Shown here piece by piece: positions 1-14,355 of a stretch of 14,666 nucleotides of DNA; position 1 is the stretch's first letter, and every line of letters starts with the position of its first letter. The position numbers were made by a program, and so were the translations under genes. Source of the stretch: a virus; UHGV virus genome UHGV-0276404; one strand, given 5' to 3'. The notes under the pieces were generated by a model that did not search any database, was not told where the DNA came from, and worked only from the letters and a program-made list of their open reading frames with translations.

Positions 1-90
1 CAGCAGCACAGCAGCACAGCAGCACAGCAGCACAGCAGCACAGCAGCACAGCAGCACAGCAGCACAGCAGCACAGCAGCACAGCAGCACA
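1..90. repeat. Perfect 8-bp tandem repeat (CAGCAGCA)n, about 11 copies, truncated by the window start
   Basis: Read directly: period-8 repeat from position 1 to 90, ending at gtgatataa. True length unknown because the window begins inside it. Confidence 0.95.
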
Positions 91-105
91 GTGATATAAT
101 TATAA

Positions 106-3683: not shown

Positions 3684-3701
3684 AGGCCGCAAGAGCGGCC
3701 T
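3684..3701. terminator. Bidirectional GC hairpin AGGCCGC-AAGA-GCGGCCT between convergent genes
   Basis: 7-bp GC-rich stem with 4-nt loop and T-rich flanks on both strands; near-identical to the hairpin at 6553-6570. Confidence 0.55.
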
Positions 3702-6552: not shown

Positions 6553-6570
6553 AGGCCGCGAAAGCGGCCT
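6553..6570. terminator. Bidirectional GC hairpin AGGCCGC-GAAA-GCGGCCT between convergent genes
   Basis: Paralogue of the 3684-3701 hairpin; T-rich flanks on both strands (TGTTTTTAA on the minus side, TTCCTTTT on the plus side). Confidence 0.6.
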
Positions 6571-6582
6571 GTGACATGTCAC
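6571..6582. repeat. Perfect 12-bp palindrome GTGACATGTCAC (copy 1 of 3)
   Basis: Read directly; immediately abuts the terminator hairpin and overlaps the stop codon of the 6579-6875 gene. Confidence 0.9.
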
Positions 6583-6875
6583 GTTCCTTTTCTGAATGAT
6601 AGCCATTCGAAAAATGATGACATTCCACCGCAGACAATAGCAAAGATGATCCCACCAAAGAAGAGAAGGCCAGCCTGCCACCACTCCCACCGCCATACAT
6701 CCACAGCGCCAACCATACCAACAATCGCTCCAACAAATGGAATATAGCTCACGATGAAAGCAATGGGGGCTGCAATTATCCAGTGCAATCCCCACCATGA
6801 TTCAAGCCCAGCCATAATTGCTGCCAACTGAAAAAGACCAACGACGATATAAACAATGAATCCTATCGCTTGCAT
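6579..6875 (-). CDS. Small multi-pass membrane protein (98 aa), last gene of the virion operon; holin-like or immunity-like
   Basis: ATG at 6875 with GGTGA 4 nt upstream. Three to four hydrophobic segments, Trp-rich (WRWEWW). Overlapping alternative-frame ORFs (6434-6736, 6544-6798) are judged spurious. Confidence 0.6.
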   Translation of the reverse strand: MQAIGFIVYIVVGLFQLAAIMAGLESWWGLHWIIAAPIAFIVSYIPFVGAIVGMVGAVDVWRWEWWQAGLLFFGGIIFAIVCGGMSSFFEWLSFRKGT

Positions 6876-6883
6876 GTAGTCAC

Positions 6884-7255
6884 CTATTTATTTTTTAGCT
6901 TTTCATCCATAGCAAATTTCGTTGCTAAATTTTCACCATCTGATTTAAGCCTTCCAATAAATTTCCGCTTACCGTCTTGAGAGGAATTTAAATAGTATAT
7001 ATTTGATTCAGCAATCTTTTGTATGTACGACTCGCATGACACAACCGAAGCTTTGGATATAGAATCAACACTTTCTCCTGTCTTAGCGTATTTTACGACC
7101 TGCCCTTTTATACATCCAAAATATTCCATTGTATGCTTTTTAGAATCCTCCAGTGTTTCCCCATTTTTAGGCTGAATCATTAACGGTGAGGTAGTATCTG
7201 CAAAAGATTTTACAACTAAAAGCATAAGAATAATCATTAATATAATTCTGTTCAT
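6884..7255 (-). CDS. Secreted/periplasmic protein (123 aa) with a signal peptidase I-type signal peptide; AT-rich
   Basis: ATG at 7255 lies 1 nt after the TAA of the transglycosylase gene, with GGGAAG upstream (translational coupling). MNRIILMIILMLLVVKSFA / DTT... signal peptide, no lipobox; two Cys in the mature part. Confidence 0.65.
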   Translation of the reverse strand: MNRIILMIILMLLVVKSFADTTSPLMIQPKNGETLEDSKKHTMEYFGCIKGQVVKYAKTGESVDSISKASVVSCESYIQKIAESNIYYLNSSQDGKRKFIGRLKSDGENLATKFAMDEKLKNK

Positions 7256-7256
7256 A

Positions 7257-8366
7257 TTACTTCCCTAGCATGAACTGCGATGGTGGGATCAGAAAGTCGT
7301 TACCCTGTTCACGCTCAACACGGCGCTGATAACGCTCAAGAGAGCCTGGGTCGCCAATCTGTTTAATCCAGCCGTCAACCTTTCCTGGGCCAGCGTTATA
7401 GGCAGCTACTGCCAGAACCGGGTTATTGTCGTATTTCTTCATCTGCGCGCCGAAATAAGCTTGCCCCAAGCGGGCATTATAGCGCGGGTCATTCAACCAT
7501 TTATCTCGGTCCCACGGCACACCAGCAAGGCGGGCAGCTTCGGGGCCAGTATCTTCCGTCACCTGCGCTACGCCAACAGCGCCTTTTGGCGACACCAGAG
7601 GTGTTCCGTCCTTTCCGTACTGATTTCCGCCACTCTCCTGCCAGATTATTGCAGAGAATAACTGCGCCTCACTCGGTGTATCGGTTACCTCAATCTTGCC
7701 GTTCGGCCCCATCATCTGTTGATACATCGGCACATACCACGCCTCCGCCGCACCGTTCGCGGCATTCTCGCGCCACGAAACCCAGTTCTGTTCGATCTCT
7801 TCCTGACTCTGGCCGTGGGCTTCGCCGTAAGCGATGATGCTATGATATGCCTTCAATCCTGCCTGGTTTGCCATTGTCGGGTTACGGAACTGCATCGATA
7901 GGTTTTTTAGTGTCGCATCCTGCATATCCGCCTCATACTGGCGAACCTGTCCTATTTCGTACCTCCCGGCCTGCGTAGTGAACTGAATACGCTGTTGCTG
8001 CGCCTGCTGCATGAAAGCATTACGAGCCTGTTCATCTGGCAGCGACATAGCCAGTTGTTCAACCTGAGCATCAAACTGCTGCGTATACTCATGGCCTTTT
8101 CCAATAGCATTTTTCCCTTTCAGGTTAAGCAATCCTGTTTCAGGATTATTCAGCAGATCACTGCCTGTCTGACTGAGTTTAAGGGATGCCTCCTGAACAA
8201 AGGCAATATTGGCACGCTGTTTTGCCTGACCAAAAACATCAATTGCCTCTGTCCCTGCCCGAACAAAAGCATCACCAATACCTGGCTGAGAAAACGTCTG
8301 CAAGCCTGCTGACTGAACTCCACGACTCTCAACCTGACGTCCGGATACTGTTGGTACGACTGGCAT
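7257..8366 (-). CDS. Internal-virion-type protein with C-terminal lytic transglycosylase (SLT) domain
   Basis: Start ATG at 8366-8364 overlaps the upstream stop (TAATG) with GGAGGA 5 nt upstream; the ORF-track N-terminal extension to 8441 is rejected. SLT motifs IIWQESGGNQYG...GAVGVAQV...AYNAGPGKV; Gln-rich N-terminal region. Confidence 0.85.
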   Translation of the reverse strand: MPVVPTVSGRQVESRGVQSAGLQTFSQPGIGDAFVRAGTEAIDVFGQAKQRANIAFVQEASLKLSQTGSDLLNNPETGLLNLKGKNAIGKGHEYTQQFDAQVEQLAMSLPDEQARNAFMQQAQQQRIQFTTQAGRYEIGQVRQYEADMQDATLKNLSMQFRNPTMANQAGLKAYHSIIAYGEAHGQSQEEIEQNWVSWRENAANGAAEAWYVPMYQQMMGPNGKIEVTDTPSEAQLFSAIIWQESGGNQYGKDGTPLVSPKGAVGVAQVTEDTGPEAARLAGVPWDRDKWLNDPRYNARLGQAYFGAQMKKYDNNPVLAVAAYNAGPGKVDGWIKQIGDPGSLERYQRRVEREQGNDFLIPPSQFMLGK

Positions 8367-8911
8367 TATAATCCTCCGGGTAATCTGGTTCCTGCTGCTG
8401 CCCCGATTGGCGCAGGAGTGCTTTGAGTAAACGGACTCCACGTCCCACCAAACATCTGGTACGCACCGTATGCCTTCAGAGGCGCAGTGAGCAATGTTGT
8501 TGCTGCTCCTACATTCCCCTGTTTACGGGCTGAACTGGCTTCTGCTTTATAGTTGGCAGCCTGCACCTGATAACCGTAAGCCTCGCGTTGCGCGTTATTC
8601 ACCGTCGTTAGCGAATCAAGAGCACCAAACTGAGCAGTGTCACCAAATATATCCAGCGCGTTACCTGTAGATAAATCAGCGCCGGTAGCCCCCATTGTCG
8701 CCGCCTGTGTACCAAGCCGCTGTCGGGTCTCTCTGCGCCGTTGCTCAGCTTCAGCGTTACCTCTGTTTATTGCATCATTTGCCTGAGCTGTGGCTATATC
8801 TGCGTTCGCTTCTGCAACCTTCGAGGCATACTTTCCCTGTTGGTACTGGGTGTATGCCTGAATGCCACTCATGGCGAGCATTGCGCCACCAGCAATAACC
8901 GGATCGCACAT
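8366..8911 (-). CDS. Putative internal virion / ejection protein (181 aa, Ala/Gln/Gly-rich)
   Basis: ATG at 8911 overlaps the upstream stop (TAATG); operon context between a virion-type protein and the SLT protein. No recognisable catalytic motif. Confidence 0.55.
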   Translation of the reverse strand: MCDPVIAGGAMLAMSGIQAYTQYQQGKYASKVAEANADIATAQANDAINRGNAEAEQRRRETRQRLGTQAATMGATGADLSTGNALDIFGDTAQFGALDSLTTVNNAQREAYGYQVQAANYKAEASSARKQGNVGAATTLLTAPLKAYGAYQMFGGTWSPFTQSTPAPIGAAAGTRLPGGL

Positions 8912-9375
8912 TATTTTCTCTCCATGTGAAATCTGTGGAAATTAAGACCAAGAGCACCATAAGGCGCGGCTTCTTCAAGCCTGAATCCAAGCCAGTGCAG
9001 CCATGCTTTGGCAACATGGTTTCGCTCATCGACGTAGTTTTCCAGGCGCGGATAAACTGCCAGCATCTGCTGCAATACAGGGCGGCAGTGGCGAAGAAAT
9101 GTCTTCTGATATTTTTCAATACGGCTGGTTCCTACCAGCCAGGGCGTACCATTGCCACCGATCATTGACGCCGGAGATACGCCAAACATGGTTACCAGTT
9201 CTCCGTTCGCAAATCCTGACCAGGCCATAGTCGCAGTGCGAAGACCAACACGCAGCGCATCTTCGGTAGTCATCAGCGATACCGCATACAGTTCGTCAAT
9301 ATCAGCCTGACGAACATCCGGCAAAATCATCTGAAGATGCTCTTCGGTAGCGGGAACAATTCGAACATCGATCAT
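8911..9375 (-). CDS. Hypothetical virion-operon protein (154 aa); weak GNAT-like C-terminal motif
   Basis: ATG at 9375 overlaps the upstream stop (TGATG). C-terminal NHVAKAWLHWLGFRLEE loosely resembles the acetyl-CoA-binding region of GNAT acetyltransferases; recalled from memory, unverified. Confidence 0.5.
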   Translation of the reverse strand: MIDVRIVPATEEHLQMILPDVRQADIDELYAVSLMTTEDALRVGLRTATMAWSGFANGELVTMFGVSPASMIGGNGTPWLVGTSRIEKYQKTFLRHCRPVLQQMLAVYPRLENYVDERNHVAKAWLHWLGFRLEEAAPYGALGLNFHRFHMERK

Positions 9376-9965
9376 CAGAATCCCCCAACAGTAAGGCGAG
9401 GAATAACGGCAAGAACAGACAGCGGCAACGGATCAAGCTGACGGATTTTTACACGTCCGTTTTTGCCCCAGTTACTGTCCAGTTTCACTTCTACTTTTCC
9501 GGTAGCATCATCAACAGGATCATCGTAGAACTCGAATTCACGCTGTGGATATTCGTACCATTTACCGCCGGGCGTAGTCGCCCAGATGCCGCGACTGGCA
9601 TTCACAACCAGAGTAACGGAGGGGATCACCTGTTTTTTGTCCAGCAGCGTTTCCTGTCCGTTAATGTTGATATCCAGTGTTTCGAATTCAGCAGTTATTG
9701 GCAGGCCGATGTGCACTACAGCCCCCGGAGATTCCAGCGTGACGGCACCTCCGGAAACCACTTTCTGTGGTTCCACGTTCGCATCAGAGAGAATGTTTAC
9801 GGTCTGGCCTTCAAGATGAGACAGGCCTCCAAATGTCCGGCGCGCCATCTGCCAGTTCGTGGTGGCCACATTCCTGAGGGATGGCGGGACGTTCCTGTTA
9901 GCACGAACCACTACAGCGGTATTGCTGGTTACAGAAATAATGTCGCAACGTAATTCTTTTGACAC
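9375..9965 (-). CDS. Hypothetical structural-operon protein; 5' end and true start uncertain (possible fusion remnant)
   Basis: The frame is open from 9965, but the first in-frame start is GTG with no SD and it overlaps the portal-like ORF by 37 nt in another frame. The internal ATG at 9848 also lacks a good SD. Confidence 0.45.
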   Translation of the reverse strand: MSKELRCDIISVTSNTAVVVRANRNVPPSLRNVATTNWQMARRTFGGLSHLEGQTVNILSDANVEPQKVVSGGAVTLESPGAVVHIGLPITAEFETLDININGQETLLDKKQVIPSVTLVVNASRGIWATTPGGKWYEYPQREFEFYDDPVDDATGKVEVKLDSNWGKNGRVKIRQLDPLPLSVLAVIPRLTVGGF

Positions 9966-10459
9966 CTCATCGCCAGTATCAGGATCAGTTCCGGTATCGG
10001 GAATGGCATTGTGCGAATGATGTCCTCGTCATCCTCCAGCACTGCCATTGCACCAGTGCTGTATGTGCCGAGGCTTCCGTATAACTGCGGCAGCGACTGA
10101 TAGAGATTCGACTTATTGAACATATCGTTCATGCGGTTCTGCACCGCCTCAAGCCACAACTTAACAGGGCCATAATCCATCATTTCAGGATCTGGCGTAG
10201 CCAGGCGAAACCACGGACGCGCGGGGCTTGTGATGCCTGACATCATGCCGCTGGCGAGAGTGCGCGCCGCCATAGTCCCGGTCGAATCAATAATGCGTGT
10301 ATTGCGTCGATCGTTACGGTTGACCTCAGAAGTCAGAAAGCGGGAACCACGCGGGTTGATGTAATCACTCAACTCGCGCCAGTGCGGCTCGAACGACTGA
10401 CGCTCGCTTTCAAGTTGTGCGAACTGTTTGTTCAATCGCTCTTTAGTTGTTTCCGCCAT
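9929..10459 (-). pseudogene. Portal (head-tail connector) N-terminal fragment, T7 gp8-like, only ~176 aa
   Basis: ATG at 10459 with GGAG 8 nt upstream. ERQSFEPHWRELSDYINP...TLASGMMSGITSPARPWFRLA matches the N-terminal pattern of podovirus portals as I recall T7 gp8 (DRAPYETRAQNCAQYTIP...LASKLMLALFPMQTWMRLT). The ORF ends after 176 aa, whereas full portals are 500+ aa. Confidence 0.5.
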
Positions 10460-10473
10460 TTCAATGACTCCGG

Positions 10474-10680
10474 TTACTGACCAAGCAGCGTTTTACCGCT
10501 GGTATTAGCGGTTGATGTGTCACCCTGAGAACCGGTAAGCAGCGTAGAACTACGACCAGCAGCAGCGCGACGGCGACGAGTTTCTTCGTCGCGGGCATCA
10601 ACAACGGCGGCATCCTGCTCCTGTGGTGCTGCCTGAACTTCTGGTGTTGCAGGCACTGACGGTGAGCTACCCATGCACAT
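10474..10680 (-). CDS. Small Ser/Thr/Ala-rich protein (68 aa) upstream of the portal fragment; possibly T7 gp6.7-like
   Basis: ATG at 10680 preceded by CGGAGTCATTGAT, a near-duplicate of the translation-initiation region at 10459-10475. Preferred over the overlapping frame 10461-10700, whose stop would overlap the next gene's SD. The gp6.7 analogy rests only on size, position and the MC- start. Confidence 0.4.
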   Translation of the reverse strand: MCMGSSPSVPATPEVQAAPQEQDAAVVDARDEETRRRRAAAGRSSTLLTGSQGDTSTANTSGKTLLGQ

Positions 10681-10769
10681 ATCAATGACTCCGTACGCAA
10701 TTAAATTATTACCAATTTAACCACATATGATTTATTTATCGTAGACAGTTGACATTTAACGCACGAATT

Positions 10770-10785
10770 ATTACCTTTCAGGTAA
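10770..10785. promoter_or_regulatory. Operator-like inverted repeat ATTACCTTTCAGGTAA (copy 5), overlapping a candidate promoter (TTGACA at 10750-10755)
   Basis: TTGACA, a 15-nt spacer, then the motif; heads the plus-strand tRNA unit. An upstream half-site at 10708-10713 and AACCACATATG at 10719-10729 mirror the arrangement at 3288-3343. Confidence 0.45.
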
Positions 10786-11107
10786 GCAAATGGTTCATTC
10801 CGGTTATTAACCTGACTGGCTTGTCGTTAAATTGAACAGGTGGAGTGAGCTTTTATTTTGAGCAGTACGGCGTATGGCACATGCGCCGATAGCGGTCTGG
10901 ATACGTTTAAGGGGCACCCTCCCTTGCTCGGGCAAACGAACCAGGTAGCCGGAATGTGCAAGTCGAGCGGTTTTATTCCGCGCACGGGGATTCACCATCC
11001 CGGCGATTCGGTGTGACGCCTCGGAAGAGACGAGGGTACAACGATGAGAGCATTTATGGAGCCGCGACAAAGTGTGGCGCCTTAACAGGCTAAGTGCTCT
11101 CAGCGTT

Positions 11108-11184
11108 GTGGCATTAGCTCAGTTGGACAGAGCAACCGCCTTCTAAGCGGTTGGTCGCAGGTTCGAATCCTGCATGCCACGCCA
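11108..11184 (+). tRNA. tRNA-Arg (anticodon UCU, reads AGA)
   Basis: Hand-folded cloverleaf: acceptor GTGGCAT/ATGCCAC, D-arm GCTC-AGTTGGACA-GAGC, anticodon arm ACCGC-CTTCTAA-GCGGT, variable TGGTC, T-arm GCAGG-TTCGAAT-CCTGC, discriminator G and encoded CCA. 77 nt. Confidence 0.9.
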
Positions 11185-11227
11185 GAATCACGCCTAAGGA
11201 CCGTGATGCCAGAAGTTCCAGGGGCTT

Positions 11228-11270
11228 GGCGGTGATGGTTTCCCTTGAAGGACTATCACCGCCCTTTTTA
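11228..11270 (+). terminator. Hairpin (GGCGGTGAT ... ATCACCGCC, 18-nt loop) followed by CTTTTTA, 3' of the tRNA
   Basis: 9-bp perfect inverted repeat plus a short U-run; may be a tRNA 3'-processing structure or terminator. Confidence 0.4.
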
Positions 11271-11347
11271 CAGCAGGACGCCATTGCGATGACTTCATGC
11301 TGTAAACCAGTACAGCCACGGAAGGCATAACTCATTGCTTCCAGTTC

Positions 11348-11371
11348 GCCCGGTTCGCCGGGCATTTTTTT
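11348..11371 (+). terminator. Intrinsic terminator GCCCGG-TTCG-CCGGGC + ATTTTTTT, abutting the SD of the 11383 gene
   Basis: Canonical GC stem, 4-nt loop and 7-U run; the SD AAGGTGAG begins 1 nt after the run. Confidence 0.7.
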
Positions 11372-11382
11372 AAGGTGAGATT

Positions 11383-11739
11383 ATGAACGACCAGCAAATC
11401 GAAAAAGAAATCGTTGAGAAAGGCAAAACCGCTCCGCGAGTTACGCCTCAATATATCGAAAGCATCATTCTTGAAGAGCATTTCTTTACTGCTTATGACG
11501 GCATTCGTGCTGCCAATATGGGCGTTGGCGATTCATGGACAGCGCATAAATCTACAGACCTCCTGACTTTCTGCGTATTGGTACTGAAGAATGGCTTCAC
11601 CGTCACCGGAGAGAGTGCCTGTGCAAGTCCGGAAAATTTTGATGCAGAAATTGGTCGGAAGATTGCCCGGCAGAATGCTGTAAACAAAATCTGGATGCTC
11701 GAAGGTTACTTGCTGAAGCAGAAGTTAAGCGAGCAATAA
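11383..11739 (+). CDS. Hypothetical phage protein (118 aa)
   Basis: ATG at 11383 with AAGGTGAG upstream; good coding look. Family not confidently recognised; a resemblance to the Gp49/Sf6 gp66-type small phage proteins is only a guess. Confidence 0.75.
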   Translation: MNDQQIEKEIVEKGKTAPRVTPQYIESIILEEHFFTAYDGIRAANMGVGDSWTAHKSTDLLTFCVLVLKNGFTVTGESACASPENFDAEIGRKIARQNAVNKIWMLEGYLLKQKLSEQ

Positions 11740-11743
11740 CACC

Positions 11744-11755
11744 GTGACATGTCAC
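11744..11755. repeat. Perfect 12-bp palindrome GTGACATGTCAC (copy 2 of 3)
   Basis: Read directly; 5 nt after the stop of the 11383-11739 gene and directly before a hairpin terminator. Confidence 0.9.
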
Positions 11756-11756
11756 A

Positions 11757-11788
11757 AACAGCCAGCCGATGAGCTGGCTTTGTTTTAT
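11757..11788 (+). terminator. Hairpin (AAACAGCCAGC / GCTGGCTTTGTTT, one bulge) with U-rich tail at the convergent junction with terL
   Basis: 7-bp perfect core AGCCAGC/GCTGGCT, 6-nt loop, then TTTGTTTTAT. Confidence 0.5.
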
Positions 11789-11829
11789 CCTCATCAGAGG
11801 ATATCAACGACATTATCCCCACTAGCGGA

Positions 11830-13305
11830 TTAAGCATAGGGATCGTAATCTGTGATGGCCTTGCCTTGCTGGTTCTGCTGCCCGGGAATTCGCAGACGCT
11901 TTGACACAGGGAAAGCAAACGTCAGCAGTAGCGCATCGCCTTTACCAGGAGAACGCCCAAGCCGCTCCTTGATATCTTCCTTCGGTTCGATAACGATTTT
12001 ACCGTCCACTCGAACTTTATACTCTGCCGCCGACAGGTCGTCCGCTGTTTCCTGGTCATCCAGCATCCCGCCCAGCCTCAGCCATGTCTTGCATGAGTTG
12101 AACATCTCCCCACGCTTGTTGAGCATCTGCGGGTCAGTAGACGCGCCACCGAACGGAACAAGTTGCCATGTGCGCCCCCAACCATCACCGATTGACTTCA
12201 GACCGGTACCGTAACCGAAGTCGATGAACACCGCGTCAGCCTGATACTGGTCTTCAAAGTCAGCGATACGCTTCGCCATAATCAGATCGTCGGTGGTCTT
12301 GTTACCAGTCCATAGCACCTTACTGTGCAGCCCCTGCCGCAGGTATATCACAGCGTCATCAACGCCGGAGTATGCCGGGTCAACGCCGATTATCACCGGA
12401 GCATGCGCCACCTGCGCAGCGGTTACCACCCGTTTCATTGCCTCATCAGTAAGACCGGTAGGGATAAACTGCAATTCAGATGCATCAGGGAATATGCCGC
12501 GCACACGGATTTTAACGAAGTCGCTATCTTCCCCGTAGTCATCAACCCATTTCTGCAACTGCTGTTTGTTAGTGCCTTCCACCGTCCGGCTGTCAATCTG
12601 CGCAGTTTTCCAGCGGTGTTTATATTTGCGGAAACATTCGCGGAAACGCCCGGTGTTACGAGTAGGGTTTCCGAACGCCACCCAGATAATCTCAGTGTCT
12701 TCGTCCGTAAGCGCACCCTCAGCAACTTCCCACACCAGATCCGCAATGTTCGACGCTTCATCGAATACCACGATGATGCGTTTGCGCTCGTTGTGTAGTC
12801 CGGCGAATGCCTCAGTGTTGTGCTCAGACCAGGGGATTGCGTCAGCTCGCCACCGCTTGTCGTGCCCAGGATCATTGCTGTACATCGCGGTAGCGGTACA
12901 GGTAAACCAGTCTTTCGTGATAGCAAGGTTCGACCACTTGATAATTTCCGGCCAGGTCTTCGTTCGTAGCTGGTTGTCGGTGTTGGCGGTCACCACGACC
13001 TTACAATCCTCGCAAGTGGACATGCCCCAGTTGATCAACATTGAGATGAATGCTGATTTACCAATACCGTGGCCCGAAGCACGTGCCAGCATAAGCGGCT
13101 GATAGCGCGTCTCGGGATTCTGCAGGTGATCACGTATCTCTCGGAACGCATCGGCCTGCCACTGACGTAGGCCGGTAGCATGTGCCAGTTCAGTCCCCTC
13201 TTCCCCCCACGGGAACGCATAGAGGGCATAGCCAAGCGGATCGTGAGTGAACCCTGCAATATCCTCGATCAACTGCTCTTCAGGAGATAACGCTGCATCT
13301 GTCAC
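11830..13305 (-). CDS. terL: Terminase large subunit
   Basis: 491-aa ORF. Walker A-like ARASGHGIGKSAF and acidic nuclease-type motifs (IIVVFDEASN, VIIGVDPAYSGVDD). GTG start at 13305 overlaps the TerS stop (GTGA) with AGGATGG upstream. Confidence 0.9.
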   Translation of the reverse strand: MTDAALSPEEQLIEDIAGFTHDPLGYALYAFPWGEEGTELAHATGLRQWQADAFREIRDHLQNPETRYQPLMLARASGHGIGKSAFISMLINWGMSTCEDCKVVVTANTDNQLRTKTWPEIIKWSNLAITKDWFTCTATAMYSNDPGHDKRWRADAIPWSEHNTEAFAGLHNERKRIIVVFDEASNIADLVWEVAEGALTDEDTEIIWVAFGNPTRNTGRFRECFRKYKHRWKTAQIDSRTVEGTNKQQLQKWVDDYGEDSDFVKIRVRGIFPDASELQFIPTGLTDEAMKRVVTAAQVAHAPVIIGVDPAYSGVDDAVIYLRQGLHSKVLWTGNKTTDDLIMAKRIADFEDQYQADAVFIDFGYGTGLKSIGDGWGRTWQLVPFGGASTDPQMLNKRGEMFNSCKTWLRLGGMLDDQETADDLSAAEYKVRVDGKIVIEPKEDIKERLGRSPGKGDALLLTFAFPVSKRLRIPGQQNQQGKAITDYDPYA

Positions 13306-13898
13306 TGATTACCATCCTGACGTTCTTTGAGTCGCTTCCTGGCTGCTGCTATGCGATCAGCAATTGTCACATTCACATTAACATCCAGACGTTCTTTGAA
13401 CGCGTTGACATCAACATGCTTACCAATCAGCTCAAGGTTCTTCACCTTGTCAGGCCATTTAATTTTTTTGAGGATTGTCTCTATCGAATCCTCGTTCATG
13501 TTCATGATGGTCGATGACAGATCAAAGCCACTAAGCGTAGTGCGCCAGATTTTCGGCCACTCACGGATTGGTTTAAGGCTCCCATCGTCGTTGAGGATGT
13601 CGATCACATCCATCTGGTCGATCTCCACCAGGCGCATAAGAACGTAATCGGCACTGACGCGCATTCGTTTGTTGCGCTCCTCCATCAGCTCGGCAATCCG
13701 TTTTTGAATGCGTTCATCGCGCATCATGACACTGGCTTTAACTGCCGCTGTATTTGGGGAGAATCCTGCGTTAATCGCTGCCTGAGTCTGGTTTTCAGGC
13801 GTTTTGATGTATGACTGGCAATAAGCCTCCTGCATTGCTGTTAGTGGCTTAAATTGCGTTGATTTGCGTTTATAGGTTTTAGGTTCAGCAGGCATCAT
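13302..13898 (-). CDS. terS: Terminase small subunit
   Basis: KPLTAMQEAYCQSYIKTPENQTQAAINAGFSPNTAAVKASVMMRDERIQKRIAELM is a typical TerS DNA-binding N-terminus. Start placed at the ATG pair 13898/13895, because an intrinsic terminator (13941-13967) lies inside the ORF-track N-terminal extension from the TTG at 13976. Confidence 0.8.
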   Translation of the reverse strand: MMPAEPKTYKRKSTQFKPLTAMQEAYCQSYIKTPENQTQAAINAGFSPNTAAVKASVMMRDERIQKRIAELMEERNKRMRVSADYVLMRLVEIDQMDVIDILNDDGSLKPIREWPKIWRTTLSGFDLSSTIMNMNEDSIETILKKIKWPDKVKNLELIGKHVDVNAFKERLDVNVNVTIADRIAAARKRLKERQDGNQ

Positions 13899-13940
13899 AA
13901 CCACCGTGGTAATAGTTACCGTTGTGGTAATAGTACCATG

Positions 13941-13967
13941 CAAAATAAAGCCGCCATAGTTGGCGGC
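13941..13967 (-). terminator. Minus-strand intrinsic terminator GCCGCC-AACTAT-GGCGGC + TTTATTTTG upstream of terS
   Basis: 6-bp GC stem and 6-nt loop, followed on the minus strand by a U-rich run. Confidence 0.5.
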
Positions 13968-14008
13968 AGTATTCAAAACCCATCAAATTCATCATGCATA
14001 ATCTACTC

Positions 14009-14020
14009 GTGACATGTCAC
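14009..14020. repeat. Perfect 12-bp palindrome GTGACATGTCAC (copy 3 of 3)
   Basis: Read directly; overlaps the stop codon of the 14017-14355 gene, 41 nt from the terS-proximal terminator. Confidence 0.9.
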
Positions 14021-14355
14021 ACTATTAATTTCGTTTCATGCCAGCCTTTAGTCACCCAGCATTGCGAGTCACCATTACACGGGCATGAATTAACTGGAAC
14101 TCTCTCGCCGCACTTACCGCAACGTTTTCTGCTGATCGATTTTATACGCCCGCGCACCCGGGCATCATCCTGGCGGATCATCAGCGCGATGTACTCGGCC
14201 ATTTCATAGGGATCTCGACCAGGGCGCCGGGCGGCGCAGTTCCGCTCCAGCATTTCAATTTCCTGAGCATCAAGCACAATCTCCAGCTTACGTACACCGG
14301 ATTCAGCTTGTCTGGCTCTCTGAGCGGCTTTGCGCTCTGCTGCTGATTTAGCCAT
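14017..14355 (-). CDS. Small basic protein with Cys-rich C-terminus (CGKCGERVPVNSCPCNGDSQC); unknown function
   Basis: ATG at 14355 (the ORF-track TTG at 14358 is less likely) with AAGG upstream. No HNH His/Asn signature despite the position upstream of terS. Confidence 0.6.
   Translation of the reverse strand: MAKSAAERKAAQRARQAESGVRKLEIVLDAQEIEMLERNCAARRPGRDPYEMAEYIALMIRQDDARVRGRIKSISRKRCGKCGERVPVNSCPCNGDSQCWVTKGWHETKLIV

What the first reader, a model, noticed from the sequence alone, without database searches (positions are those of the whole stretch)
6571..14020. Three identical copies of the perfect palindrome GTGACATGTCAC, each at a module junction next to a terminator hairpin
The 12-mer occurs at 6571-6582, 11744-11755 and 14009-14020. 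For a 12-mer in ~14.7 kb, three perfect copies is far above chance expectation. Each copy overlaps or immediately follows a stop codon and lies 0-41 nt from a hairpin terminator, at boundaries between differently oriented or differently composed modules. It could be a protein-binding site (dimeric regulator or nuclease target), a conserved junction sequence that mediates modular exchange between phages, or part of a compound terminator. The adjacent GC hairpins at 3684-3701 and 6553-6570 are themselves near-identical, which supports reuse of junction cassettes.
Basis: seen in the sequence. Interest (0 to 1): 0.62.

Follow-up and report, generated by a model that had tools for sequence, protein, structure and literature searches.

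The report
Conserved phage palindrome, likely regulator site
The three identical palindromes are real, and they belong to an undescribed DNA signal found across many temperate phages of enteric bacteria and vibrios, always alongside one small uncharacterised DNA-binding protein that most likely binds it.

Summary
GTGACATGTCAC occurs exactly three times (0 expected). All three copies are the same 14-mer, CGTGACATGTCACA, and each lies at a gene end 0-41 nt from an intrinsic terminator. The window is an epsilon15/phiV10-type (Uetakevirus) prophage of E. coli.

The element is ancient and specific. Epsilon15 has the same three sites at the same places despite about 77% flanking identity. In 65 prophage loci from different Enterobacterales species, GTGAC-N2-GTCAC occurs 84 times in 1.2 Mb, against 0-3 for every other spacing.

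It travels with one gene, a 112-aa protein (window 14017-14355, minus strand; phrog_536, no Pfam) with a ribbon-helix-helix-like fold and a Cys-rich tail. The TGA stop of that gene lies inside the palindrome in 32 of 70 homologues, out to phage N15 at 34% identity. Seven regulator-carrying phages of five virion types hold 1-3 sites each. Five phages without the gene hold none.

The site fits neither host look-alike: matS (13 bp) or the SlmA site (G5 required). The RNA hairpin is negligible, and asymmetric centres occur in both orientations.

Best reading: a DNA operator for this regulator that marks transcription-unit ends. The binder is inferred, and the roadblock or insulator effect is a guess. 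No paper holds the motif.

The parts
6571..6582 (.). Site 1: GTGACATGTCAC (14-mer TGTGACATGTCACG). It holds the TGA stop (6579-6581) of the last gene of the late structural operon.
   Evidence: The orthologous site is at epsilon15 19517 and phiV10 19493.
6553..6570 (-). Intrinsic-terminator hairpin AGGCCGCTTTCGCGGCCT plus a T-tract, directly abutting site 1, between convergent genes.
   Evidence: Fold of -17.4 kcal/mol, z -2.7.
6579..6875 (-). Last ORF of the late structural unit (phrog_3075, unknown function). Its stop codon lies inside site 1.
11744..11755 (.). Site 2: GTGACATGTCAC (14-mer CGTGACATGTCACA), 4 nt after the TAA of the cargo gene and 4 nt before the shared terminator. It sits at a mosaic boundary.
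   Evidence: The orthologous site is at epsilon15 2142 and phiV10 2262.
11760..11779 (+). Terminator hairpin AGCCAGCCGATGAGCTGGCT plus a T-tract, shared by the convergent cargo gene and terL.
11383..11739 (+). Variable cargo gene (Pfam Phage_gp49_66), convergent with terL. At least 8 unrelated genes occupy this slot in relatives.
11830..13305 (-). Large terminase gene. Its transcription unit ends at the shared terminator followed by site 2.
14009..14020 (.). Site 3: GTGACATGTCAC (14-mer CGTGACATGTCACA). It holds the TGA stop (14017-14019) of the regulator gene.
   Evidence: The stop lies inside the site in 32 of 70 homologues.
14017..14355 (-). Candidate binder: a 112-aa protein with an N-terminal basic helix, a ribbon-helix-helix-like core and a C-terminal Cys-rich motif (CxxC..CxC..C). 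It is the last gene of the early-right operon.
13950..13967 (-). Terminator hairpin GCCGCCAACTATGGCGGC plus TTTATTTT, between the regulator gene and terS, 41 nt from site 3.

Best explanation
YGTGAC-N2-GTCACR is a double-stranded-DNA recognition site for a dimer of the small ribbon-helix-helix-like, Cys-rich protein encoded at window 14017-14355 (minus strand). One copy is kept beside, and usually overlapping, the stop codon of that gene. One or two more copies lie elsewhere in each phage genome.

In epsilon15/phiV10-type phages the three copies mark the 3' ends of three transcription units, each paired with an intrinsic terminator: the early-right operon, the terminase unit with its convergent cargo gene, and the structural operon. 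The units start at a different palindrome, ATTACC-N5-GGTAAT, which the epsilon15 record annotates as repressor sites.

The most likely action is as follows. The regulator is made last from the early operon. It then occupies these sites and acts as a boundary that reinforces the neighbouring terminators and insulates convergent or successive units. Placing the roadblock just past a stop codon means no trailing ribosome can push RNA polymerase through it.

What is shown: the conservation of the site, its strict spacing, its specificity to phages with the regulator, and its co-location with the gene. What is inferred: the identity of the binder. What is a guess: the roadblock or insulator effect and its direction (termination rather than antitermination).
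For: Selection on the site:
- It is exact at the three orthologous places in epsilon15.
- It is at the regulator stop in about 77 of 80 close relatives from IMG/VR and again after terL in 55 of 80.
- There are 84 N2-spaced sites in 1.21 Mb of 65 loci, against 0-3 for spacings 0, 1, 3-7 and for the everted arrangement.
- The site stays next to the stop when the C-terminus changes (offsets +5, +7, +9).
- Inside cII-like genes it is kept at synonymous positions.

Link to the regulator:
- 45 of 70 homologues have a site within 20 nt of the stop, and 65 of 70 loci hold at least one.
- This extends to N15 gp46 (34% identity, G|TGA|CTGGTCAC) and AH07. Vibrio K303 (31% identity) holds three sites, the nearest 228 nt past the stop.
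- Genomes with the regulator: epsilon15 3, ZF40 3, N15 3, K303 3, AH07 2, phiV10 2 plus a 1-mismatch copy, YenM 1.
- Five phages without it, plus 42 kb of host DNA, hold 0.
- Of 120 unbiased IMG/VR hits to the 14-mer, 46 have the regulator in the same chunk and 48 more are related phages.

DNA level, symmetric dimer:
- The RNA hairpin is -1.2 kcal/mol, z -0.03.
- Asymmetric centres occur in both orientations at the same place (AG/CT, AC/GT; N15 TG/CA relative to transcription).

The protein:
- The near-invariant N-terminal helix AERKAAQRxRQ goes with the invariant half-sites. The variable beta-strand goes with the variable centre, which follows clades: Yersinia GC 6 of 6, N15 TG 3 of 3.

Unit-end placement in this window.
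Against: - No binding data exist.
- The centre dinucleotide is not fully consistent within genomes (L087 has AG plus AT; K303 has GC plus AC plus AC), so the co-variation is only suggestive.
- Finding phages through the regulator biases the co-occurrence. The unbiased check is a capped sample.
- Operators at 3' ends are atypical for RHH repressors.
- In ZF40, N15 and the Xenorhabdus and Providencia prophages, some sites lie inside genes (cII-like, repA) with no terminator nearby. Only 45% of sites have a terminator-like hairpin within 70 nt. The 'operon-end' role may therefore be specific to Uetakevirus.
- The regulator's host range (Enterobacterales, Vibrio, Aeromonas) equals that of MatP and SlmA, so a host partner cannot be excluded on distribution.
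Confidence: 0.5

Rival explanations
1. The sites are bound by a host nucleoid protein, not by the phage protein. The candidates are MatP (matS has the same GTGAC half-site) and SlmA (its site has the same 12-bp length and the same outer GTGA/TCAC). Binding would tether or organise phage DNA, or interfere with cell division.
For: Motif resemblance: matS is GTGAC[AG]N[TC]GTCAC and the SlmA site is GTGAGTACTCAC. All hosts of regulator-carrying phages (Enterobacterales, Vibrio, Aeromonas) belong, to my knowledge, to the clade that has MatP and SlmA.
Against: - The spacing is N2, not N3. matS-type spacing occurs only 2 times against 84 in the same loci.
- SlmA strongly requires G at position 5 and prefers a pyrimidine at position 6. 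The site has C5 and A6 in both halves.
- Prophages were reported to avoid matS.
- E. coli phages N15 and phiV10 share a host yet use different, internally consistent centres.
- The site is absent from 5 phages of the same hosts that lack the regulator.
Confidence: 0.08
2. The palindrome is primarily a recombination junction. It would be either a short conserved boundary sequence or a nuclease target at which phage modules are exchanged, and its conservation would reflect that role rather than regulation.
For: Site 2 lies exactly at a mosaic boundary with at least 8 unrelated cargo genes on one side. Downstream of site 3 the module also varies: a mini-ORF plus terminator plus terS, a terminator plus terS, or a LexA-box promoter.
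Against: - 12-14 bp is too short for efficient homologous exchange (established knowledge of RecA and Red substrate lengths).
- Any conserved regulatory element next to a variable slot would give the same picture.
- Sites inside conserved genes (cII-like, repA) are not module junctions.
- No nuclease or recombinase co-varies with the site.
Confidence: 0.12
3. The element works in RNA. It would be a small hairpin or processing site at mRNA 3' ends, or a context element for the weak UGA-C stop codon. Alternatively it is simply part of a compound terminator.
For: The site is transcribed at gene ends. TGA-C is embedded in 32 of 70 regulator genes. A terminator follows within 0-41 nt in this window.
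Against: - The hairpin has 4 bp, -1.2 kcal/mol, no better than shuffles.
- The stems never vary, so there is no covariation support.
- Asymmetric centres occur in both orientations relative to transcription.
- Many sites have no terminator nearby.
- Read-through of the regulator stop gives no conserved extension (own reading).
Confidence: 0.07
4. The palindrome supplies a -35-like hexamer (GTGACA on both strands) for weak promoters firing outward from unit ends.
For: The consensus scan finds GTGACA-18-AATGAT at site 1 (plus strand) and GTGACA-18-CATGAT at site 3 (minus strand), each 9 of 12 matches. The two flanks are 74% alike over 31 nt (I1).
Against: - The scores are at background level (0.6-0.8 such hits expected per region).
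- There is none at site 2.
- The -10-like hexamer is not kept in epsilon15 or other relatives.
- A promoter at site 1 would only make antisense RNA.
Confidence: 0.05

Closest known systems
Ribbon-helix-helix repressor/operator pairs (P22 Arc and Mnt, CopG, IncFII CopB, ParG/ParR)
   Same: A small dimeric protein with a strand-helix-helix core. A short palindromic DNA site with invariant half-sites. The gene and the site are inherited together.
   Different: The sites lie at 3' ends of units, or inside genes, rather than over a promoter. One site overlaps the regulator's own stop codon. The protein has an extra conserved N-terminal basic helix and a C-terminal Cys-rich module. There is no Pfam membership.
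matS, the MatP-binding site of the E. coli Ter macrodomain
   Different: matS is 13 bp (N3 spacing) and this site is 12 bp (N2). The prophage sits at guaA, not in Ter. There is no sequence similarity between the regulator and MatP.
SlmA-binding sequence (GTGAGTACTCAC)
   Same: A 12-bp palindrome with the same outer GTGA...TCAC.
   Different: Positions 5 and 6 (C, A) violate the bases SlmA needs (G, then a pyrimidine). SlmA is a TetR-family protein.
Protein roadblocks to transcription (LacI at O2, CodY, CcpA and GalR roadblocks)
   Same: A DNA-bound dimer within or at the end of a transcription unit, away from the promoter.
   Different: No roadblock has been demonstrated here. The pairing with intrinsic terminators and the placement on stop codons are not features of the known cases.
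Boundary sequences and moron junctions of lambdoid phages
   Same: A short conserved sequence exactly at the edge of a variable gene slot, beside a terminator.
   Different: This is a strict palindrome with a protein-site signature. It is also found inside genes and in non-lambdoid phages (P2-like, N15-like, Vibrio siphophages).

Membership tests
matS (MatP site) | 13-bp pattern GTGAC[AG]N[TC]GTCAC | tested here: not met
   All three copies are 12 bp with N2 spacing. The pattern is quoted from PMC3603311. N3 spacing occurs 2 times against 84 for N2 in related loci.
matS (MatP site) | Located in the Ter macrodomain of the host chromosome | tested here: not met
   The prophage abuts guaA (PMC9782041). 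guaA lies outside Ter according to the E. coli map as I know it.
matS (MatP site) | Bound by MatP | not testable with these tools
   Needs EMSA or ChIP.
SlmA-binding sequence | G1, T2, A4, G5 required, purine at 3, pyrimidine at 6 | tested here: not met
   The site is G T G A C A. Positions 5 and 6 fail in both halves (PMC3020112).
RHH regulator/operator pair | The protein has a ribbon-helix-helix fold | tested here: inconclusive
RHH regulator/operator pair | A short inverted or tandem repeat bound by a dimer | tested here: inconclusive
   The DNA side fits: invariant 5-bp half-sites, fixed spacing, orientation-independent centre. Binding was not tested.
RHH regulator/operator pair | The operator overlaps the promoter of the regulated unit | tested here: not met
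   The three sites are at 3' ends. Only background-level promoter matches were found.
Intrinsic (Rho-independent) terminator | A stable GC-rich stem-loop followed by a U-tract | tested here: not met
   The palindrome alone has 4 bp and -1.2 kcal/mol, with no U-tract. The neighbouring hairpins do meet the definition.
REP/BIME-type host repeats | Abundant in host intergenic DNA irrespective of context | tested here: not met
   0 in 42 kb of E. coli flank. 94 of 120 sampled occurrences are in phages related to the regulator carriers. A whole-chromosome count was not possible.
Partition centromere (parS/sopC-like dispersed sites, as in N15) | A cognate ParA-type ATPase and centromere-binding protein encoded by the element | tested here: not met
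   No ParA/ParB-type gene is annotated in the integrated prophage. Integrated phages do not need partition.
pac site | A single terminase recognition site in or beside terS of a headful-packaging phage | tested here: not met
   There are three copies per genome. Sites are also present in cos phages (N15; the P2-like YenM) and far from the terminase genes.
Q-type antiterminator site (QBE) | A site embedded in a late promoter with a promoter-proximal pause, followed by a terminator | tested here: inconclusive
   Site 3 is followed by a terminator, but no credible promoter was found. ZF40 and AH07 carry a separate Q-like gene.

The most novel reading that the evidence does not exclude
The regulator and its two or three dispersed matS-like sites form a phage-encoded DNA-architecture or insulator system. 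It would be a MatP-like RHH protein that bridges or loops the phage genome at unit boundaries, or blocks RNA polymerase there. The system is shared by podo-, myo-, sipho-, P2-like and telomere phages from Vibrio to Escherichia. It uses a site deliberately one base pair away from the host's matS, with outer bases in common with the SlmA site.
Probability: 0.12. Interest if true: 0.8.

Novelty: new variant of a known kind. Interest (0 to 1): 0.57.

Why it matters
If the inference holds, it defines a cis-element and its partner protein for a family (phrog_536; N15 gp46, epsilon15 gp49, ZF40 gp22) that has carried only the label 'transcriptional regulator' or 'hypothetical'. It would give epsilon15/phiV10-type phages an explicit grammar: units start at ATTACC-N5-GGTAAT and end at GTGAC-N2-GTCAC plus a terminator. 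It would add an example of regulation from the 3' end of operons. The 14-mer is also a practical marker for this group of prophages and for the variable cargo slot next to terL. The closeness of the site to matS and to the SlmA site raises a testable question about cross-talk with host chromosome organisers.

Tried and rejected
- The epsilon15 genome paper could not be fetched by PubMed id or by a remembered PMC id.
- Literature searches for the 12-mer and four variants returned only eukaryotic primer sequences.
- The regulator has no match in Pfam or PDB sequences.
- The promoter reading was rejected as background level.
- The RNA hairpin was rejected on energy.
- 'Always next to a terminator' was rejected as a general rule.
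- Late-gene activator or antiterminator was considered. ZF40 and AH07 have their own Q-like genes and the P2-like Yersinia phage has its own ogr-type late regulator gene, so this protein is not the general late switch.
- Restriction-modification target was considered. The methyltransferase content of the carrier phages is inconsistent.
- HNH nuclease target was considered. HNH genes neighbour the regulator in AH07 and ZF40, but none is annotated in epsilon15 or phiV10.
- Read-through of the regulator's UGA-C does not enter the terS frame (own reading).
Full report
**Observation.** GTGACATGTCAC occurs at 6571-6582, 11744-11755 and 14009-14020 and nowhere else, even allowing 2 mismatches. None of 200 dinucleotide-preserving shuffles held a single exact copy. 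The identity extends one base on each side. All three are the 14-mer CGTGACATGTCACA, with site 1 in reverse complement. Beyond that the flanks are unrelated.

The TGA stops of the minus-strand ORFs 6579-6875 and 14017-14355 lie inside sites 1 and 3. Site 2 begins 4 nt after the TAA of the plus-strand ORF 11383-11739. Terminator-like hairpins lie 0, 4 and 41 nt away.

**Context.** The window is an epsilon15/phiV10-type (Uetakevirus) prophage of E. coli. The closest complete genome, NZ_CM129861.1, matches at 99.7-99.9% in four pieces. Relative to it, the window lacks an IS3 in the tailspike gene and two blocks of structural genes, 5.8 and 6.5 kb. That prophage sits next to guaA, as reported for phage ZX5 (PMC9782041). 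It contains exactly these three sites. The left arm of the prophage and 42 kb of host flank contain none.

The sites close three transcription units:
- the early-right operon, whose last gene is the ORF at 14017-14355;
- the terS-terL unit together with a convergent cargo gene;
- the long structural operon.

The units begin at a different dispersed palindrome, ATTACC-N5-GGTAAT. It has 9 matches with up to 2 mismatches against 0.5 expected. The epsilon15 record annotates these as repressor sites.

**Conservation.**
- Epsilon15, whose flanking DNA is only about 77% identical, has the exact 12-mer three times, at the orthologous places: 2142, 19517 and 39612. Its heavily annotated record has no feature on any of them.
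- phiV10 has two exact copies plus GTGACATGTTAC across the record ends.
- In 80 close relatives from IMG/VR, the site is at the stop of the 14017-14355 homologue in nearly all, and again after terL in 55. It is nowhere else in the 12-kb loci.
- In 65 loci from different Enterobacterales species (homologue identity 40-82%), GTGAC-N2-GTCAC occurs 84 times in 1.21 Mb. Spacings 0, 1, 3-7 and the everted arrangement each occur 0-3 times.
- The flanking bases are Y and R at nearly all gene-associated sites. The centre is AT in 65, and GC, AC/GT, CT/AG or GG in the rest.

**Link to one gene.** The ORF at 14017-14355 encodes a 112-aa protein. It matches phrog_536 'transcriptional regulator'. It has no Pfam or PDB-sequence match. 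Only 217 clusters in 1.84 billion representatives match it.

Of 70 homologues examined, 45 have a site within 20 nt of the stop, and in 32 the TGA is inside the site. 65 loci hold at least one site. Where the C-terminus differs (Xenorhabdus, Rahnella, Erwinia), the site is kept 5-9 nt downstream. Selection therefore acts on the DNA and not on the codons.

The gene occurs in phages of quite different build: Uetakevirus podophages, the Pectobacterium myophage ZF40, Pantoea AH07, P2-like Yersinia phages, the telomere phages N15 and phiKO2, and Vibrio and Aeromonas phages. Site counts per complete genome are as follows:

| Phage | Sites | Note |
|---|---|---|
| epsilon15 | 3 | |
| ZF40 | 3 | |
| N15 | 3 | all GTGAC-TG/CA-GTCAC; one overlaps the gp46 stop although the proteins are only 34% identical |
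| Vibrio K303 | 3 | 31% protein identity |
| AH07 | 2 | |
| YenM | 1 | |

Five phages of the same host range that lack the gene hold none. These are lambda, P2, the P22-like ST-35 and S.Inf 5-2, and Sodalis phiSG1. Three of them have a related terL.

In a sample not chosen through the gene (120 IMG/VR chunks holding TGTGACATGTCACG), 46 carry a homologue in the same chunk. A further 48 share DNA with regulator-carrying phages.

**DNA or RNA.**
- The palindrome as RNA forms 4 bp at -1.2 kcal/mol, no better than shuffles.
- Non-palindromic centres occur in both orientations at the orthologous position (AG in L087 against CT in L090, L099 and L125; AC against GT).
- N15's three identical sites face both ways relative to transcription.
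- Invariant half-sites, strict spacing and an orientation-free centre are the signature of a symmetric dimer on duplex DNA.

Across the family the N-terminal helix AERKAAQRxRQ is nearly invariant, like the half-sites. The putative beta-strand varies by clade, like the centre: Yersinia clade GC in 6 of 6, N15 TG in 3 of 3, and a Pantoea 'KKLEL' subgroup with AC, CT or GT. This fits the protein being the binder but does not prove it. Some genomes mix centres.

**Comparison with known motifs.**
- matS is GTGAC[AG]N[TC]GTCAC, 13 bp, and was reported absent from 500 prophages (PMC3603311). The present site has the same half-sites but is one base pair shorter.
- The SlmA site is GTGAGTACTCAC, with G required at position 5 and a pyrimidine preferred at position 6 (PMC3020112). 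The present site has C and A there.
- It therefore belongs to neither family, although it looks like a hybrid of the two.
- No paper in the searchable library contains the 12-mer or its variants in a microbial context.

**Mechanism.** In this window and its relatives the arrangement is gene stop, then site, then terminator, read in the direction of the nearest gene. At convergent junctions the site sits on one side of a shared terminator.

My best reading has three steps. The regulator is made last from the early operon. It then binds these sites. There it acts as a boundary that backs up the terminators and insulates neighbouring units. A position just past a stop codon would make such a block effective, because no ribosome follows the polymerase. 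This last step is inference only.

It is weakened by the other phage types, where sites lie inside a cII-like gene, inside repA or inside a Q-like gene. It is also weakened by the modest overall association with terminators (38 of 84 against 25% at random positions). Antitermination, looping between sites, or a role outside transcription remain possible.

**The junction idea.** At the terL-distal site, 60 instances show two classes of left flank but at least eight unrelated cargo genes on the right, each ending TAA-CACC-site or with a close variant of that spacer. The palindrome thus coincides with a mosaic boundary. Whether it promotes exchange or is simply the last conserved element cannot be decided here.

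**Verdict.** The finding is real, non-random and evolutionarily deep. It points to an undescribed regulator and site pair with an unusual 3'-end placement. The binder is inferred with moderate confidence. The effect on transcription is a hypothesis with clear experimental tests.

Noticed in passing
window 13973-13999 (minus strand): An 8-codon mini-ORF, ATGCATGATGAATTTGATGGGTTTTGA (M-H-D-E-F-D-G-F-stop), with a Shine-Dalgarno-like GAG upstream. It lies between site 3 and the terminator before terS, and its stop is 5 nt from the hairpin. In L087, L088 and L093 synonymous changes keep M-x-D-E-F-D-G-F (L089 has V for G). Epsilon15, L086 and L111 lack it. It looks like a leader peptide or attenuator.
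   Followed up: partly
window 3328, 4448, 4541, 5608, 10770, 13897, 13915 (17-nt sites): A second dispersed palindrome, ATTACC-N5-GGTAAT: 9 matches with up to 2 mismatches against 0.5 expected. It lies at the 5' ends of transcription units and equals the sites annotated 'repressor' in the epsilon15 record. Two copies lie directly before terS.
   Followed up: partly
window 1-91: A perfect tandem array of the 8-nt unit CAGCAGCA, 11.4 copies. It lies inside the hypothetical CDS that overlaps the end of the tailspike gene in NZ_CM129861.1. The unit length is not a multiple of three, so copy-number change would shift the frame. This could be a phase-variable switch.
   Followed up: no
window about 2631-2635, 7348-7352, 9995-10003: Relative to the nearest complete prophage, the window lacks an IS3 (1.3 kb) and two blocks of structural genes (5.8 and 6.5 kb). 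There are 5-9 nt overlaps at the joints. The prophage in the window is probably defective, with fused ORFs at 7257-8441 and around 9375-10459.
   Followed up: partly
window 13893-13976: The RefSeq and phiV10 terS start (TTG at 13976) runs through the upstream terminator and the operator-like repeats. The start used in epsilon15 (ATGCC..., window 13895) is more plausible.
   Followed up: partly
L084, L085, L090, L092, L095, L096, L098, L100 (just downstream of the regulator gene): In several other prophages a good sigma-70 promoter with a perfect LexA box (CTGT-N8-ACAG) follows the regulator gene or palindrome. In N15 the homologue gp46 lies in an operon I recall as the SOS-controlled antirepressor operon.
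   Followed up: no
L003 (epsilon15) 26618-26629: A degenerate fourth copy, GTGACATGGCAT, whose TGA is the stop of the Rz-like spanin gene, in the same register as the true sites at gene ends.
   Followed up: no
L269 (ZF40) 7622; L119, L124, L126, L129-L132, L137, L141: In ZF40-like, Xenorhabdus, Providencia and Rouxiella prophages the exact 12-mer lies inside the 3' part of the cII-like gene, where it encodes x-D-M-S-H/Q. It is kept at synonymous positions in every case.
   Followed up: partly
L272 (Vibrio phage K303) 19491: One matS-type 13-mer (GTGACACCGTCAC) in a phage that also has three N2-spaced sites. Sodalis phiSG1 also has one N3 site.
   Followed up: no
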